A stretch of DNA of 64,000 bases from Octopus sinensis (lineage: Eukaryota): the NCBI RefSeq assembly GCF_006345805.1, contig NC_042998.1:76818001-76882000 (forward strand), in the 5' to 3' direction. This document shows positions 2,850 through 46,099 of this stretch, one piece after another (within the stretch, counting starts at the first letter, position 1; each line of letters opens with the position of its first letter). A program made the translations under genes and the position numbers. The notes beneath the pieces are model-generated. The model was not told the origin of the DNA, did no database searches, and saw only the letters and a program-made list of their open reading frames with translations.

Positions 2850-3202
2850 AAGTTGACATCGGGGTGTGACGAAGTGGCTGTAGAAAAAAGGTTTAACCCC
2901 TAAGGACATTCATGCTGGCATGGTGGCTACTTTTAGAGATGATGTTCCAGGTTTATCACCAGTACAAAAGTGGGTAGCTGAATTTAGGAGCGGAAGGGAG
3001 AGTCTTGAAGACGACTCAAGATTTGGACTTCTGCATGAGCCACCACCGAGGAAAACATTGGTGACGGATGCCAGCTGATTGACTATTAATATAAATAGCA
3101 ATGGTATTAGCATATCCTGTGAGAGAATTGAGAACATTCTGCACAATGAAATCGGCATGACGAAAGTTTCTGCTCGATGGGTGCCACGTCTTCTAACACC
3201 CC
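2850..3202 (+). mobile_element. mariner transposase N-terminal fragment (degenerate)
   Basis: translates KGLTPKDIHAGMVATFRDD..VQKWVAEFRSGRESLEDD and, further on, KVSARWVPRLLT (mariner HTH plus WVPHEL-type motif). Confidence 0.8.
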
Positions 3203-8337: not shown

Positions 8338-9853
8338 TTAGGTTGTCAAGAATGTTCTTGCGGTTTTCAACATTTAAATTCAGATGCACATATCTCGGCT
8401 CAAACAAAACTTTATTAATCGAAATAAAGATCATCATAATCAACACACTTTTGCCAATGCGAATCAAATTTATTTATGCCAGTATCGTAAAAATCCTGCG
8501 TTCTGGTGGCTATAAAGTCGTTGAAGGTGTGTTTGGCATCGTCTTGGTTTGGCATCGTCTTGGTCACGCAGGAAGTTGTCGAGATGCTTGAAATAGTGAT
8601 AATTGGTAGGCGTGAGGTCTGGTGAGTATGGTGGATGAGGTAGAGTTTCGTAGCCCAATTCGTTCAACTTCTGCAGGGTCAGTTGTGCGACGTGCGGCCG
8701 CGCGTGGTCGTGGAGAAGAAGTGTTCCTTTTCTATTGACCAATGCTGGTTGTTGTCGGAGTTTCTTATGCATTTCATCCATTTGCTGACAGTACTTCTCC
8801 GCCGTAATGGATTCGGCTGGATCCAAAATCTGTGATGAATGAGACCGGCTGCAGACAACCAAAGATTCACCAACCGTTTTTTGATGCAACTTTGACTTCG
8901 GGAAAAGCTGTGGAGCTTCGTCGGCGTCCAACCATTAAGTTGAGCGTCGCCAGTTGTATAAAGAATCCAGTTTTCATCGCAAGTATCAATCTGGAAGGCG
9001 GCGAGCTGGCAGAATCGTTAGCACACCGGGCGAAATGCTTAGCGGTATTTCGTCTGCCGTTACGTTCTGAGTTCAAATTCCGCTGAGGTCGACTTTGCCT
9101 TTCATCCTTTCGGGGTCTATAAATTAAGTATCAGTTACGCACTGGGGTCGATATAATCGACTTAACTCCTTTGTCTGTCCTTCTTTGTCCCCTCCTTGTT
9201 TAGCCCCTCGTTGGCAATAAAGAAATAAGTATTAATCTGGTCGAGAAACGAGTCGTTCTTGCTGCGTAAAAGAAGGTAAGACGACACTTCAAAACGGCGT
9301 CTTTTTTGGTTGTCATTCAATTCGTGCAGTACCCATTTTTCAAGTATTTTTGTTTTTCTAATCTCTTTCAAGTGGTTGGAAATTGTCGTATACGTTACAT
9401 CTAATTTAGAAGCAAACTCTCGAACTGTTGTGCGTAGATTCGCTTCCACTAAGGCTCTAAGTTGATCGTTGTCAACATCTGATGGCCAACCACTACGCTT
9501 ATCCTCTTCAAGACTCCCGTCACCGCTACGAAATTTCTTGAACAACCATGGTGCTGTACGTTCATTAGTGGGTTCTAGGCCAAATGCATCGTTGATATCG
9601 CGAGCTGTTTCAGCAGCCTTTTGGCCTAGCTTTAAATGGAATAAGAAAATTGTGCGAATTTGCCTTTACTCCATGTTGTATTCAACGTTCCTGAAAAAAT
9701 ATTTAAAAAGAAAAAGAGTAACACGATTCGATAGGGCGAAAACGGGCTTTAAAATGATATATAAAGTAAAAGTAATTTAACGAAAATTAATTTGAAAATA
9801 CATAATTTCAACCCAAAATTAAAAATTCATCAAGAACTTTCATGATAACCTAA
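8338..9853 (-). mobile_element. TIR-to-TIR mariner transposon with disrupted transposase
   Basis: TIRs TTAGGTTGTCAAGAATGTTCTTG and CAAGAACTTTCATGATAACCTAA; TA on both sides (8336-8337, 9854-9855); motifs KWVLHEL, LLHDHARPHVA, HPPYSPDLTP; stops, frameshifts and a SINE insertion. Confidence 0.95.
8995..9226 (+). mobile_element. SINE family 1, complete copy with 14-bp TSD
   Basis: TSD AAGTATCAATCTGG (8981-8994) and AAGTATTAATCTGG (9227-9240); B-box-like GAGTTCAAATTCC. Confidence 0.95.
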
Positions 9854-30785: not shown

Positions 30786-32338
30786 TCTTGCATTTCCTTT
30801 TTCAGAGCTTCCTTGCAACTGGCAAACTTCCAAGAAAACTGAAGGAAGGTAAAATATGCCCTATTCATAAAGGCAGCGCGGAGGCCAGGAACTACAGACC
30901 TATCACTCTGACCTCACACATCAGCAAGGTCATGGAACGAATAGTCAGAAGGAAACACATCGCCTTCCTTGAAGAAAATAACTTGCTGCCTGACACCCAA
31001 CATGGTTTCCGACCAGGAAGAAGCTGCCTAACTCAGCTATGACTGGGTGCTGAAACAACTGCTCAACCACCCAAATGTGGAAGTGTTATATCTCGACTTT
31101 GCAAAAGCCTTTGATAAAGTCGATCATGGAAGATATGTCACAAACTGCGTGATCTTGGCATAGATGGAAAATTGGGAGAATAGCTTCATGACATTCTGAA
31201 GGATAGAAGCCAGGTGGTAGTAGCCAATGGGGCAACCTCCATTAACACGCAAATAGTGAGCGGTGTTCCACAAGGCACTGTTTTGGGACCACTACTGTTC
31301 ATAATGGCCCTCTCGGACATGACCTCAGCCACGCAGAGAGCCACGATCACAAGTTATGCAGATGATACAAAAGTTTCACAGGCAATACAGAACCCTGAAG
31401 ACACTATGCACCTGCAATGTGAGCTGAACAAAATATACAAGTGGGCTGAAAAGAATAACATGCAGTTCAATGCTGAAAAGTTTCAAGCTTTATGCTATCA
31501 GCATGCAAAATTAAATGCAATACCCAATAAATACACTGGACCTGGAGGGATTGCAATCCCAGAGGCACAATCAGTTCGAGACCTGGGTAATGATGCAACC
31601 TTTCATGTGCATGTTGCTAAATTGGCAATGAAATGTAGGCGGCTGACCGGATGGATTCTTAGAGCCTTTAGAACAAGAGACCAGGAAACCATGATGGTCC
31701 TCTGGAGGATACTTGTCCTAAGCCACTTTGACTATTGCTCTCAGCTATGGTCACCATCCAGTGTCAAATTAATCACAGAACTTGAGGCGATCCGACGAAG
31801 CTACACGAAGAAGATAGCCTCTGTGCAGCATATAAGCTATTAGGAAAGTCTCAAGAGATTAAGACTCTATTCCTTAGAGCGTAGGCGAGAAAGATATGCC
31901 ATAATATACATCTGGAAGATCCTGGAAGGACTTATCCCAAACTTTGGCATCGAGAGTTACACAAATACCAGAACTGGGCCCCACTGCATAGTGCCAAGGA
32001 CTCCAAATTTGCCATCAAGATGTAGGATAAGATACTATGATAGCCTGAGCTTCAGAGGTCCACAGCTCTTCAATATCCTCCCGAAGGACCTGAGAGACCT
32101 GAATGGGGTGGATGCAGATGTCTTTAAAATAAAACTGGATCTCTTCCTGTCAGGTATCCCAGATGAACCAATTTCACGGCAGGAGGTGCAGATGAGGGCA
32201 GCTGCATCGAACTCCCTCATGCACCAAATGGCAATTGCTAAAAAGCATTCGTGAAGTAAAATCATGTAGCAACACCAAATGGCGGTGCCCCAGCATGGCC
32301 ACAGCTCGTGAGCTGAAACTAGATAAAATATAAAATAT
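30786..32338 (+). mobile_element. 5'-truncated CR1/L2-group LINE with nearly complete RT domain (pseudogenised) and 3' tail
   Basis: NYRPITLTSHISKVMERIV, QHGFRPGRSCLTQL, YLDFAKAFDKVDHG, SGVPQGTVLGPLLF, SYADDTK, HFDYCSQLWSP; stops and frameshifts; AT-rich tail. Confidence 0.95.
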
Positions 32339-37535: not shown

Positions 37536-39119
37536 CAGTTGCCGCCAAAACGTTCAGAACGGCATTGTTTTCGCCAGAAAAGTAGGTATAAGTTTTTATT
37601 AAAGCTGTTTTATATTCTATAATTTTCACAGACAATAAATACAATATTAGTTGGTATTTTCCGAGATTTTGGTATAATTTGAGTGGATAATACAAAAGTT
37701 ATGATATAGTGATTTACTGCAAAACCCATGGTGGCCAAAATGATCAGAACGGTTGAAAAAATAACAAAATAATCAAAAAGTGACAGAGAATGCTGGAATT
37801 ATTTCATATTTAGTGTGAAGCCCTTTAGTTTCAATCAAAGTTTGACATTTTTGACTGCATGGGGAAATTAAATATTCACTTTCTTGCTGGGTGATCTTAT
37901 TCCGTTCTTCCTGAAGGGCATTCCATAATTGCTCGGTTGTTTTAGGATTTCTGGCTTTCAAGCGTCCTCCTAGAATATTCCACACATTTTCAATAGGATT
38001 GAGGCCTGGGCCTTGAGCAGGCCAATCCATAACAATAACCTTTTCAGCCTTGAGGAAGTTCATGACCACCTTAGCCTTGTGATATGGGGCATTGTCCTGC
38101 ATGAATATGGGTGGTCGCTTAGTTGAATTTCTCAGCACAGGAAAGACATGATCTTTTACAGGTTGTTTATAAACTCCTGCATTTACCTTTCCATGTAATC
38201 GCAGCAAAGGGCCCACAACATCTCCAGATATCATCCCCCAAACCATGACACTTCCTCCACCGAATTTAACACTAGTCGTAAGGCATTTAGGTGAAAATTT
38301 TTCATGTGCTTTTCCCATCTGTGTCAAATAACATAGACTTAGATTCATCACTGAAATGCACCGTTTGCCATTTTTCTTGAGACCACAACACATGTTCGGT
38401 TGCAAAGGTAAGACGACACTCTTTATTCTTAGAGCTGATCAGTGGCTTCACTGCAGGCGCTCTTGCTTGTAGGTCATGTTCAACTAAAGGACGAGACACA
38501 GTTTTTCGAGATAAAGTTTTCTTCAGTACAATGCTCATTTCCCGAAAAACAGCAGCAGCAGTTTTACCATAGCACGGTCTTCTCTCTTGGTCGTTTTTCT
38601 TGGCCTACCTGTAGACTTTCTTGCTTCACACGAACCACAATCATCGTAGACCTTAAGAATACCGTGAACAACACTTTTTGACTTGTTAACAATCTTTGCA
38701 ATAGACCTAATACTTAAATTATCCTTCTTTCGAAGCTTAATAATCTGCTGACGAATTGGTAACGGAGTAAGTGGCATTATATTAACAAACTACACTGCAG
38801 CTATTCTTACTAATGTTTATTAAACGAACTGTCACGTAAACAAATTCAAAACATTAGAGTTCGACGTTTAAATATACTAAAACATGGAGTAAAAGCAACC
38901 GTTCTGATTATTTTGGCCGCCATGGGTTTTGCAGTAAATCACTAAATCATCCATTACTTTTTTATTATCCTCTCAAATTACACCAAAATCTCAGACAATA
39001 ACAAATAATATCGTATGTATTGTCTGTTAAAATTATAGAATATAAAACAACTTTGATAAAAAATTATATCTACTTTTCTGACGAAAACAATGCCGTTCTG
39101 AACATTTTGGCCGCAACTG
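37536..39119 (-). mobile_element. Tc1-family DD34E transposon with ~220-bp IR/DR-type TIRs and frameshifted transposase
   Basis: TA|CAGTTG...CAACTG|TA ends; TIRs 37536-~37755 and ~38896-39119; transposase in 3 frames (38777 to ~37800) with GRPRKTT, HFSDESK, FMQDNAPYHKA, WPAQGPGLNPIE; 34 residues between D and E. Confidence 0.95.
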
Positions 39120-43903: not shown

Positions 43904-44305
43904 CACTTATACACACACATGTATGCATTTATATATATGTATATACAAATATACACATGCACACACATGTAGCTGTACGCACACATGCATAGCATCACTC
44001 ACAGACCTGTGCATGCATGCATGTATGTGTGTGTGCTTGTGTGTGTGTGTGTGTGTGTATGTGTGTGTGTGTGTGTATATAATATATATTAAATATATTA
44101 TTTATAATTATATGCATGTGCATGCATTGTAAGTCAAGTTGACACTGCTCTCAATATTAAATCATCCCACCAGTAAATATTCTGTTGTTAAGCCCGAGAC
44201 TGGCTTTAAAATGATAAACTTATTCTAACATACAAACGCACACAAACACTACCGCATACGCACATACACACACATAAACATGCATGTATATTTATGTATT
44301 TATAC

Positions 44306-44650
44306 AACAATTGCAGCGTGGAAGGTGTTTATAAGCCATTTAAGAAACACACAAAAGCCGTTCAATTCACTTCAACATTTAAGTTTAATTTCTCAAAATA
44401 TTTTCGTCGCTAAAATCCGCGACCTGTTCACTGACAAAAATCCGTGCTGCATCTCATTTTTGTCAGTGAACAGGTCGCGGATTTTAGCGACGAAAATATT
44501 TTGACAAATTAAACTTAAATGTTGAAGTGAATCGAACGGCTTTTGTGTGTTTCTTAAATGGCTTATAACACCTTCCACGCTGCAATTGTTTTCGTTTCAG
44601 CACACGATCTCAGATCAAATTACTTGCTATGCGAGTACATCTCCGTAATA
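44306..44650 (+). mobile_element. fold-back PLE-terminus-like element: 136/135-bp inverted arms, 14-bp spacer, ~60-bp tail
   Basis: arms 44306-44441 and 44456-44590; hammerhead-like motif at 44459-44508. Confidence 0.8.
44459..44508 (+). ncRNA. hammerhead-like motif with G3-C8 core (GUGAACA)
   Basis: TTTGTCA GTGAACA G GTCGC-ggatttta-GCGAC GAAA ATAT TT TGACAAA: helix I 7 bp, helix II 5 bp, palindromic AATATT at helix III. Confidence 0.55.
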
Positions 44651-45156
44651 TGTATTATATTTATAATTATATACATGTATATTCATGTAGATATGTATAA
44701 ATATGCTTGTGTGTGTGTTTGTGTGTATATTGTTGTGTATGTGTATCACCCCATGTGTTCATATAGTTATTTATATTTGCATGTACTTCTTTATACAATA
44801 TTTTCAAATTATTTTCGTCTGTATTTCGCTCCCCCCACCCTTTTATTCCTTTACGTGTACATTTTAAAGCATCTTTCGTTCGCAAGAACCTTTTTTTTTT
44901 TGTTAAAGGATAAATTATATACGTTGTTTCATCATATAATATGTTGGCATTTCTTCATTAAGATAAAAAAGTATATTTATTACGGATAAACCTACAAAAA
45001 TGTATTCAAATTTTATTAAAGGAGATTAAGAATGATAAATATTATGGTACTCTGTCTATTAATTGCGTTTCGAATATTATGCATTCGAACTTATTTCTTG
45101 TTTATTACTGTGAAGATGAGTTCGTCAAAATAGCCATAGGGCGCACTGTTCATCGT

Positions 45157-45204
<48 letters not shown>

Positions 45205-45487
45205 ATGTGTGTGTGTGTATACATGTGGGTGTGTGCGTGCGTGTATTTGTGTGTGTATATAATATATATTAAATATATTATTTATAAATTATATGCATGT
45301 GCATGCATTGTAAAGTCAAGTTGACACTGCTCTCAATATTAAATCATCCCACCAGTAAATATTCTGTTGTTAAGCCCGAGACTGGCTTTAAAATGATAAA
45401 CTTATTCTAACATACAAACGCACACAAACACTACCGCATACGCACATACACACACATAAACATGCATGTATATTTATGTATTTATAC

Positions 45488-45833
45488 AACAATTGCAGCG
45501 TGGAAGGTGTTTATAAGCCATTTAAGAAACACACAAAAGCCGTTCAATTCACTTCAACATTTAAGTTTAATTTCTCAAAATATTTTCGTCGCTAAAATCC
45601 GCGACCTGTTCACTGACAAAAATCCGTGCTGCATCTCATTTTTGTCAGTGAACAGGTCGCGGATTTTAGCGACGAAAATATTTTGACAAATTAAACTTAA
45701 ATGTTGAAGTGAATCGAACGGCTTTTGTGTGTTTCTTAAATGGCTTATAAACACCTTCCACGCTGCAATTGTTTTCGTTTCAGCACACGATCTCAGATCA
45801 AATTACTTGCTATGCGAGTACATCTCCGTAATA
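45488..45833 (+). mobile_element. second copy of the fold-back element
   Basis: inverted arms span 45488-45773, followed by the same tail. Confidence 0.8.
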
Positions 45834-46099
45834 TGTATTTATATTTATAATTATATACATGTATATTCATGTAGATATGTATAAATATGCTTGTGTGTGT
45901 GTTTTAAAGAAACAATGTTGTTTTGTTAGTCTTTGATAAATGACGGTAATAGTATCGTCGGTGTTTTGTCTTATTTCATTTTAATACGAAGTTATATCTG
46001 TTTTACTGTCCGTTATCAGAATGAAATGATTTTATGCGAACAGAAAGCAGCTGGATTTGTCCACTTTTGGCTATACGATATTGAAACCGCAACGATACA

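What the first reader, a model, noticed from the sequence alone, without database searches (positions are those of the whole stretch)
44459..44508. Hammerhead-like ribozyme fold with a swapped G3-C8 core pair inside a fold-back element
Seen: TTTGTCA-GTGAACA-G-GTCGC(ggatttta)GCGAC-GAAA-ATAT-TT-TGACAAA. This gives a perfect 7-bp helix I, a 5-bp helix II and the GAAA strand. The core reads GUGAACA instead of CUGANGA, so C3 and G8 are both changed and still pair. Established: C3-G8 is a tertiary Watson-Crick pair in the active hammerhead, and Penelope-like elements carry minimal type I hammerheads whose palindromic helix III allows dimeric cleavage (here AATATT). Inference: a compensatory double change is what selection on catalysis would leave, and standard CUGANGA searches would miss this family. 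Caveat: the predicted cleavage triplet is UUU, which is normally poor. Copies are also present in the duplicate (~45641-45690) and, with one helix I mismatch, on the minus strand in the left arms.
Basis: partly seen in the sequence, partly recalled or inferred. Interest (0 to 1): 0.8.

Follow-up and report, generated by a model that had tools for sequence, protein, structure and literature searches.

The report
Swapped-core hammerhead in octopus retrotransposon
A 50-base motif carried by thousands of copies of a Penelope-type jumping gene is a small hammerhead RNA whose two paired core letters are swapped (G3-C8 instead of C3-G8); sister families of the same element carry the usual or other pairings at the same spot, so it is likely a natural, apparently unreported variant, though self-cutting is untested.

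Summary
The motif is real (44459-44508, with three more copies in the window). The fold-back is not a separate element. It is the short end (pseudo-LTR plus tail, with an inverted partner and a 12-bp target duplication) of an autonomous Penelope-like retrotransposon that encodes RT and GIY-YIG. A full pLTR-ORF-pLTR copy carries the motif at both ends. The G3-C8 core has 6,733 exact matches in the genome. At the same position before the ORF, four related families carry C3-G8, U3-A8 or U3·G8, with compensatory changes in helices II and III. This is good evidence for a true minimal type I hammerhead under selection. Older subfamilies include G3·G8 copies (9 of 129; 0 of 121 in the youngest), possibly a fossil intermediate. 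Activity is not shown. Copies show no specific 5'-truncation peak at the predicted cut, G3·G8 lineages still spread, and no raw RNA reads were available. Engineered G3-C8 is known to be partly active and natural U3-A8 is known. Nine literature searches found no natural G3-C8, but four key papers were not held. Verdict: new variant of a known kind.

The parts
44459..44508 (+). Minimal type I hammerhead motif with G3-C8 core (core 44466-44472, extra G 44473, helix II 44474-44491, palindrome AATATT 44495-44500, predicted cut 44501/44502)
   Evidence: covariation
44456..44645 (+). Sense arm: 5'-truncated pLTR end of a Penelope-like element, with hammerhead, 5' UTR, ORF start and tail
   Evidence: matches the 5' pLTR/ORF start and 3' pLTR of the full element L201
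44306..44455 (-). Inverted arm, from the common 5' end (G-AGATG) to the first end site (ATTGTT)
   Evidence: 95% complementary over about 285 nt with the sense arm; same layout in other genomic copies
44389..44438 (-). Hammerhead motif in the inverted arm, with one helix I change
44558..44645 (+). Start of the PLE ORF (ATG at 44558; one-base deletion in this copy, intact MAYKHLPRCN... in the duplicate at 45740)
44591..44645 (+). About 55-nt tail between the two preferred end points (inferred reverse-transcription start sites)
   Evidence: loose ends at L201:3191 and 3249 followed by (TA)n in public runs; PMC11167929
44293..44304 (+). Target-site duplication, left (TATGTATTTATA)
44649..44659 (+). 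Target-site duplication, right (one base shorter here; exact 12-mer in the duplicate, 45475 and 45832)
45202..45904 (+). Local duplicate of 44022-44720 holding the second copy (motifs at 45641-45690 + and 45571-45620 -); recent duplication or assembly artefact
   Evidence: 97.7% identity, differences within the element mostly one-base indels in runs

Best explanation
The motif is the minimal type I hammerhead of an autonomous Penelope-like retrotransposon family, with a natural G3-C8 core pair, and it likely cleaves after U17 weakly, as a dimer or with help from the element's protein. Shown: it sits about 20 nt after the element's common 5' end and about 50 nt before the ORF start in each pseudo-LTR. 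A full copy has two motifs in tandem. Related families keep the 3-8 pair as C-G, U-A or U·G at the same position. Inferred: the RNA starts at (G)AGATG. The RT starts internally at two sites 30-90 nt into the ORF and copies back to the 5' end on both target strands. This produces thousands of ~200-bp copies and fold-backs like the one in the window, with 12-15 bp target duplications, mostly in (TA)n. Those copies came from uncleaved RNA, so cleavage is slow or not needed for insertion. G3-C8 is inferred to be derived from a C/U3-G8 ancestor, possibly through a G3·G8 stage.
For: Full element L201: motifs at 3061 and 7422, ORF from 3157 with one frameshift. L203 has a 1,042-codon open frame with RYVDD, a CX3CXXC linker and YIG. 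Closest Atlas clusters carry RVT_1, HTH_animal and GIY-YIG. Best named homolog is an Octopus vulgaris RT-domain protein at 55%. 6,733 G3 matches against 3 for the reversed control. Families found by protein homology carry the motif at the same place: B (C3-G8, A9C) and D (U3-A8). C (C3-G8, most of 366 matches) and E (U3·G8) have recognisably homologous N-termini. On 10 sequences the 3-8 pair is CG 4, GC 2, UA 2, UG 2; helix II is 100% paired with two double changes; 15.2-16.2 is AU, GC or GU; covariation 0.388 against 0.220 shuffled (0 of 500). Subfamily-level changes hit 0 of 42 structured positions and 9 of 70 loop or flank positions (p=0.013). All four unsearched hallmarks of PLE min-hammerheads listed in PMC4209133 are present, covariation included. 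Engineered C3G/G8C partly restores cleavage of a PLE hammerhead, which is protein-assisted (PMC11167929).
Against: No cleavage assay. No specific truncation peak: about 64 copies start at the cut (18 of 30 of 107 matches), about 11 at -5 (3 of 30 of 108), but about 117 at +7 (14 of 30 of 250; 11 distinct events). The first 100 of 694 matches looked flat by eye. G3·G8 masters produced several copies (a clade with support 0.89). The cleavage-competent dimer (-28.8 kcal/mol) is predicted less stable than two monomers (-30.8) or the best dimer (-32.7). Helix I is only 57% paired across families and poor in D. The 10 aligned rows were picked with patterns that demand helix II and the core, so those scores lean towards the structure. 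PMC11167929 found that hammerhead mutants do not affect insertion in vitro.
Confidence: 0.6

Rival explanations
1. It is a real hammerhead descendant that is now practically inactive. G3 arose first and disabled it, C8 later restored pairing or simply drifted to fixation, and the fold is kept as a protein-binding or RT-positioning signal or for 5' UTR control, not for cutting.
For: G3·G8 lineages retrotransposed. G8 occurs in about 4 independent ORF-linked 5' copies. There is no cut-site peak. Family B lacks the conserved A9. In PMC11167929 no RNA reads began or ended at the cut and mutants inserted normally.
Against: The youngest subfamily is fixed for the Watson-Crick partner C8 (118 of 121 arms, 0 G8). 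The catalytic U4 G5 A6 and G12 A13 A14 are invariant in all 10 aligned rows from 5 families. A purely structural role would not need the 3-8 tertiary pair, which forms in the active conformation (recalled, Martick and Scott 2006).
Confidence: 0.3
2. It is an efficient ribozyme in vivo that routinely processes tandem PLE transcripts. Dead G3·G8 cores are over-represented in long ORF-linked copies because only uncut RNA can be copied through the 5' motif.
For: G8 occurs in about 4 of 7 independent ORF-linked 5' copies (by eye) against 3 of 117 arms in samples not selected on the core. In L202 the 5' motif is G·G and the 3' motif G-C. Truncations are about 6-fold more frequent at the cut than 5 nt upstream.
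Against: Thousands of copies retain the whole G3-C8 motif, so most templates were uncut. Truncations are as frequent at +7. The ORF-linked sample is tiny and includes duplicated loci.
Confidence: 0.08
3. It is a chance hammerhead look-alike inside a palindromic MITE-like DNA element.
For: The window copy is a near-perfect fold-back, and Rfam gives no hammerhead match.
Against: The element is the end of an RT/GIY-YIG element. It has an asymmetric tail and 12-15 bp target duplications. Homologous families carry the canonical core at the same position.
Confidence: 0.02

Closest known systems
Minimal type I hammerheads (min-HHRs) of Penelope-like elements (Cervera and de la Pena 2014, PMC4209133)
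   Same: Located in the pLTRs; extra nucleotide between 9 and 10.1; G10.1-C11.1; palindromic 15.2-16.2; mostly scattered truncated copies
   Different: The core pair is G3-C8. That paper reports C3-G8 and, as a variant, U3-A8 in Schistosoma; the parts read do not report G3-C8.
Natural U3-A8 core hammerheads (Perreault et al. 2011, PMC3088659 section 8)
   Same: Compensatory change of the 3-8 tertiary pair
   Different: Here purine and pyrimidine are swapped, which needs two transversions, and a G·G state is seen among older copies
Poseidon element of Anolis (PAc) with engineered C3G/G8C hammerhead (Frangieh et al. 2024, PMC11167929)
   Same: Hammerhead near the ORF start; two internal RT start sites defining a tail; AT-rich targets; double mutant partly active
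   Different: There G3-C8 is a laboratory mutant, here it is the fixed natural state. Here the ORF starts 3' of the motif and the tail is about 55 nt.
Named C-terminal-endonuclease PLE clades (Neptune, Nematis, Hydra; Craig et al. 2021, PMC8557442)
   Same: RT followed by a CX2-5CXXC linker and GIY-YIG; (TA)n targets; inverted 5'-truncated copies; endonuclease region resembles Nematis by eye
   Different: Not Hydra (that clade has YRDD, a CxCX5C linker and no CCHH). About 20% identical to the 781-aa PLE family of the same genome. About 70 extra residues between RT motifs A and B'. Pfam RVT_1 and GIY-YIG miss it.

Membership tests
Type I hammerhead (PLE min-HHR) | Core N3-UGA-N-N8-A and GAAA with a 3-8 base pair | tested here: met
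   GUGAACA and GAAA; 3-8 paired in 10 of 10 rows with four pair types. The literal CUGANGA consensus is not met.
Type I hammerhead (PLE min-HHR) | Helix II starting G10.1-C11.1, with an unpaired base after A9 | tested here: met
Type I hammerhead (PLE min-HHR) | A15.1-U16.1, palindromic short helix III, H17 | tested here: met
   AAUAUU then U17; 15.2-16.2 covaries
Type I hammerhead (PLE min-HHR) | Helix I closing the motif | tested here: met
   7 bp in this family; only 57% of cells paired across families because of bulges and a weak helix in D
Type I hammerhead (PLE min-HHR) | Position in the pLTRs of a PLE, two in tandem | tested here: met
   L201 positions 3061 and 7422
Type I hammerhead (PLE min-HHR) | Self-cleavage after position 17 | not testable with these tools
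   The genomic truncation proxy was inconclusive; only contigs were available for RNA
Rfam hammerhead families | Match to a covariance model | tested here: not met
   No hammerhead model at E<=10 on 44445-44560
Penelope-like element (EN+) | Single ORF with RT and C-terminal GIY-YIG | tested here: met
   Motifs in L203 and L160; Atlas neighbours. Pfam itself gave no hit.
Penelope-like element (EN+) | pLTRs, inverted 5'-truncated copies, tail, AT-rich target with duplication | tested here: met
Hydra clade of PLEs | DKT, RWK, CxCX5C linker, no CCHH | tested here: not met
   Here DKS, RWR, CX3CXXC and C/C/H/H residues in the endonuclease (against PMC8557442 section 11 and supplement)
Nematis or Neptune clade | Placement in an RT tree with reference elements | not tested
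   No reference sequences were on hand as tool records; the linker motif fits either clade and the resemblance to Nematis is by eye only
MITE or other DNA transposon | Symmetric terminal inverted repeats, transposase partner | tested here: not met
   Asymmetric tail and an RT partner

The most novel reading that the evidence does not exclude
This is a catalytically active natural hammerhead with a fully swapped G3-C8 core, fixed in a recently active retrotransposon family through a mismatched G3·G8 stage that survives in older genomic copies. One genome then holds a natural series of all the pairings at the 3-8 position (C-G, U-A, U·G, G·G, G-C). The host elements may also be an unnamed PLE lineage with a telomerase-like fingers insertion.
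Probability: 0.35. Interest if true: 0.62.

Novelty: new variant of a known kind. Interest (0 to 1): 0.46.

Why it matters
Hammerhead searches assume CUGANGA, sometimes U3-A8, so a G3-C8 family with thousands of copies in one animal genome is invisible to them. If it cuts, the natural core consensus has to widen. Some PLEs scored as lacking a hammerhead may then be worth re-searching. The five related families, with the G·G copies, give a ready-made natural series for asking whether PLE hammerheads are selected for cleavage or only for their fold. That question is still open, because cleavage was dispensable for insertion in vitro (PMC11167929). If it does not cut, it is a well-documented case of a ribozyme fold retained after loss of catalysis.

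Tried and rejected
MITE or DNA-transposon reading: rejected. Separate non-autonomous family or retrozyme: rejected, because the short copies equal the pLTR and ORF start of the autonomous element. The 781-aa PLE family found with Pfam GIY-YIG is not the partner; it has its own U3-A8 hammerhead. Hydra-clade assignment, first noted in my notebook, was withdrawn. Genomic cut-site signature: no specific peak; classification was by eye on 30 loci per pattern, and 5 of the 30 junctions at the site are explained by helix I microhomology. RNA: no RNA holder listed on record; 24 runs, all Logan contigs, which cannot show ends. The metagenome scan gave 14 relatives; only L332 had a clear hammerhead (C3-G8, after the ORF), L330 had a possible diverged core by eye, and none had G3-C8. 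Rfam on the whole window listed only hairpin or microsatellite matches among the top 150 of 337. A PDB profile search gave one weak RT hit. Splicing against cap copying for the 5' G was not resolved. Families C and E had no long ORF for the tree, so polarity is inferred. Papers not held: PMC5785218 (Lunse 2016, PLE hammerhead variants), PMC1986816, PMC3334697 and PMC5850863; any of these could already report natural G3-C8. Supplements of PMC4209133 and PMC3088659 were not read.

Full report
Observation. The 50-mer folds by itself into helix I and helix II at -14.7 kcal/mol, z -3.4; in longer context the fold persists but is no more stable than shuffles. A strict G3-C8 descriptor gives 2 hits in the window against 0.025 per shuffled window. 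The four window copies are two arms of one insertion (44306-44645) within a 97.7%-identical local duplication. Rfam has no hammerhead match here.

What the fold-back is. A DNA search of the 2.72-Gb genome G000 returned many 94-100% identical copies (40 of 551 candidates scored). They typically have an inverted arm ending at one site and a sense arm with a further ~55-nt tail. Of 21 loci parsed, 12 have only (TA)n-type matches on both sides, 2 gave no repeat, 4 show clear 12-15 bp target duplications, 1 is ambiguous and 2 are the window itself, whose duplicate has an exact 12-mer. 541 copies extend upstream. Following them led to a microsatellite-rich 3' UTR and an ORF with RT and GIY-YIG motifs (L160, 793 open codons), and to a full pLTR-ORF-pLTR copy, L201, with the motif at both ends and the ORF starting MAYKHLPRCN. 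The window's tail is that ORF start. The best named homolog is an Octopus vulgaris protein (55%), so the host is probably an octopus. This layout of inverted truncated copy, tail and AT-rich target is the one described for PLEs (PMC8557442 passages). Internal RT initiation at two sites explains the tail (PMC11167929, parts 1-2 of 4). Loose ends followed by (TA)n fall at the two end points in public runs, and the G3-C8 core appears in runs labelled organisms A, C and D.

Is it a hammerhead? The G3 core pattern has 6,733 matches (reversed control 3); palindromic insertions count twice. The same pattern with A, C or T at position 3 has 364, partly decayed copies and partly other families. A protein search with the N-terminal 248 residues found paralogous families at about 27-43% identity. 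Upstream of their start codons lie the same motif with C3-G8 and A9C (family B) or U3-A8 (family D). Family C (C3-G8, cleavage triplet UUC; most of the first 100 of 366 matches) and family E (U3·G8) were found by pattern and have recognisably homologous N-termini by eye. In an alignment of two copies per family, the 3-8 pair is CG 4, GC 2, UA 2, UG 2. Helix II is fully paired with two double changes, 15.2-16.2 is AU, GC or GU, and the covariation score is 0.388 against 0.220 shuffled and 0.055-0.196 slid. Caveats: I picked the rows with patterns that require the core and helix II, five families are few events, and helix I is only 57% paired across families. Within the family, frequent subfamily-level changes fall at 0 of 42 structured and 9 of 70 loop or flank positions (p=0.013), with some bias because several selecting patterns overlap these columns. 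The features PMC4209133 lists as arising unsearched in PLE min-hammerheads are all present (parts 1-2 of 4 read).

History of the swap. An N-terminal tree places this family as sister to B plus D (support 91/92). The one metagenome relative with a clear motif has C3-G8 (1 of 14 loci), as do all rows of the hammerhead table in the supplement of PMC8557442. G3-C8 is therefore inferred to be derived. Among 279 arms assigned to subfamilies (divergence from column majority 2.9, 3.5 and 6.7%), G3·G8 occurs in 9 of 129 G3 arms of the two older subfamilies after collapsing likely duplicates, and in 0 of 121 of the youngest (Fisher p=0.003). Background C-to-G change is about 1%. The excess comes largely from ORF-linked loci; in samples not selected on core or ORF it is 3 of 117 against 0.6% background. 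G8 arms need about 9 steps on the arm tree but include one clade with support 0.89. A G·G master therefore existed; whether it is a retained intermediate or a repeated reversion is open.

Does it cut? Not shown. G8C alone lowers the rate about 100,000-fold and C3G partly restores it (PMC8495972 passage). The double mutant of a PLE hammerhead is partly active, needs protein, and cleavage was not needed for insertion (PMC11167929). A G3-C8 variant was more active with G17 than with C17 (PMC3884650 passage, data not shown), so U17 here avoids a G3-C17 pair (inference); family E also has U17, so it may predate G3. The cleavage-competent dimer is predicted about 2 kcal/mol less stable than two monomers. 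As an in vivo proxy I counted copies beginning at the cut: 18 of 30 loci of 107 matches, against 3 of 30 of 108 at -5 and 14 of 30 of 250 at +7. A window-wide pattern looked flat in its first 100 of 694 matches. There is no specific peak. RNA runs were contigs only. The window copy lacks the upstream sequence and its arms would pair with each other, so it is a fossil rather than a working ribozyme (inference).

Novelty. Natural U3-A8 is known (PMC3088659 section 8; PMC4209133). Nine searches found G3-C8 only as an engineered mutant. Passages of PMC6765202, PMC6155905, PMC6962438 and bioRxiv 10.64898/2026.07.22.740005, and part 1 of 2 of PMC2920678, added nothing on it. Lunse 2016, Hammann 2012, Przybilski 2007 and Arkhipova 2017 were not held. 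Earlier scan notes mention G3-C8 candidates in a phage and in protist PLEs (unchecked); none matched this sequence. Verdict: a new variant of a known kind, with unusually good comparative support and no functional proof. Interest 0.46.

Noticed in passing
L203:2952-6077 (-), L201:3157-6368: The RT has 133 residues between motifs A and B' against 64 in the 781-aa PLE family. That is a ~70-residue fingers insertion in a C-terminal-endonuclease PLE, a feature PMC8557442 assigns to N-terminal-endonuclease clades and some Coprina. 162 homologs were found. Possibly an unnamed PLE lineage.
   Followed up: partly
window 44455; L201:3035-3050: The base before AGATGCAG is G in 40 of 59 contexts, while upstream-containing copies have C or T, and the sequence beyond the G varies. 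This suggests a copied cap at an initiator-like start. The upstream CTAAC...TTTCTYAG also looks like a 3' splice site (541 copies).
   Followed up: partly
L121-L129, L095-L120: A young 781-aa PLE family with intact ORFs carries a U3-A8 hammerhead in its 3' end.
   Followed up: partly
window 16794-17314: Tandem pair of another fold-back PLE end that holds the 3' half of a hammerhead resembling Hydra-clade motifs.
   Followed up: partly
L398, L400, L404, L405, L414: Family B replaces the conserved A9 with C in several ORF-linked copies, a second unusual core.
   Followed up: no
L202:6697 and about 970 (-): One element has G3·G8 in its 5' motif and G3-C8 in its 3' motif.
   Followed up: partly
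window 7159 (-): Another hammerhead-like motif with a U3-A8 core, also seen in GIY-YIG locus L103.
   Followed up: no
window 31184-32250 (+), about 37780-38440 (-), about 8470-8930 and 9160-9670 (-): Fragments that by eye resemble a LINE RT and Tc1/mariner transposases (family names recalled, not tested).
   Followed up: no
window 57650-59140: Near-identical local duplication (97.6%), like 44022-45904; may be an assembly artefact.
   Followed up: no
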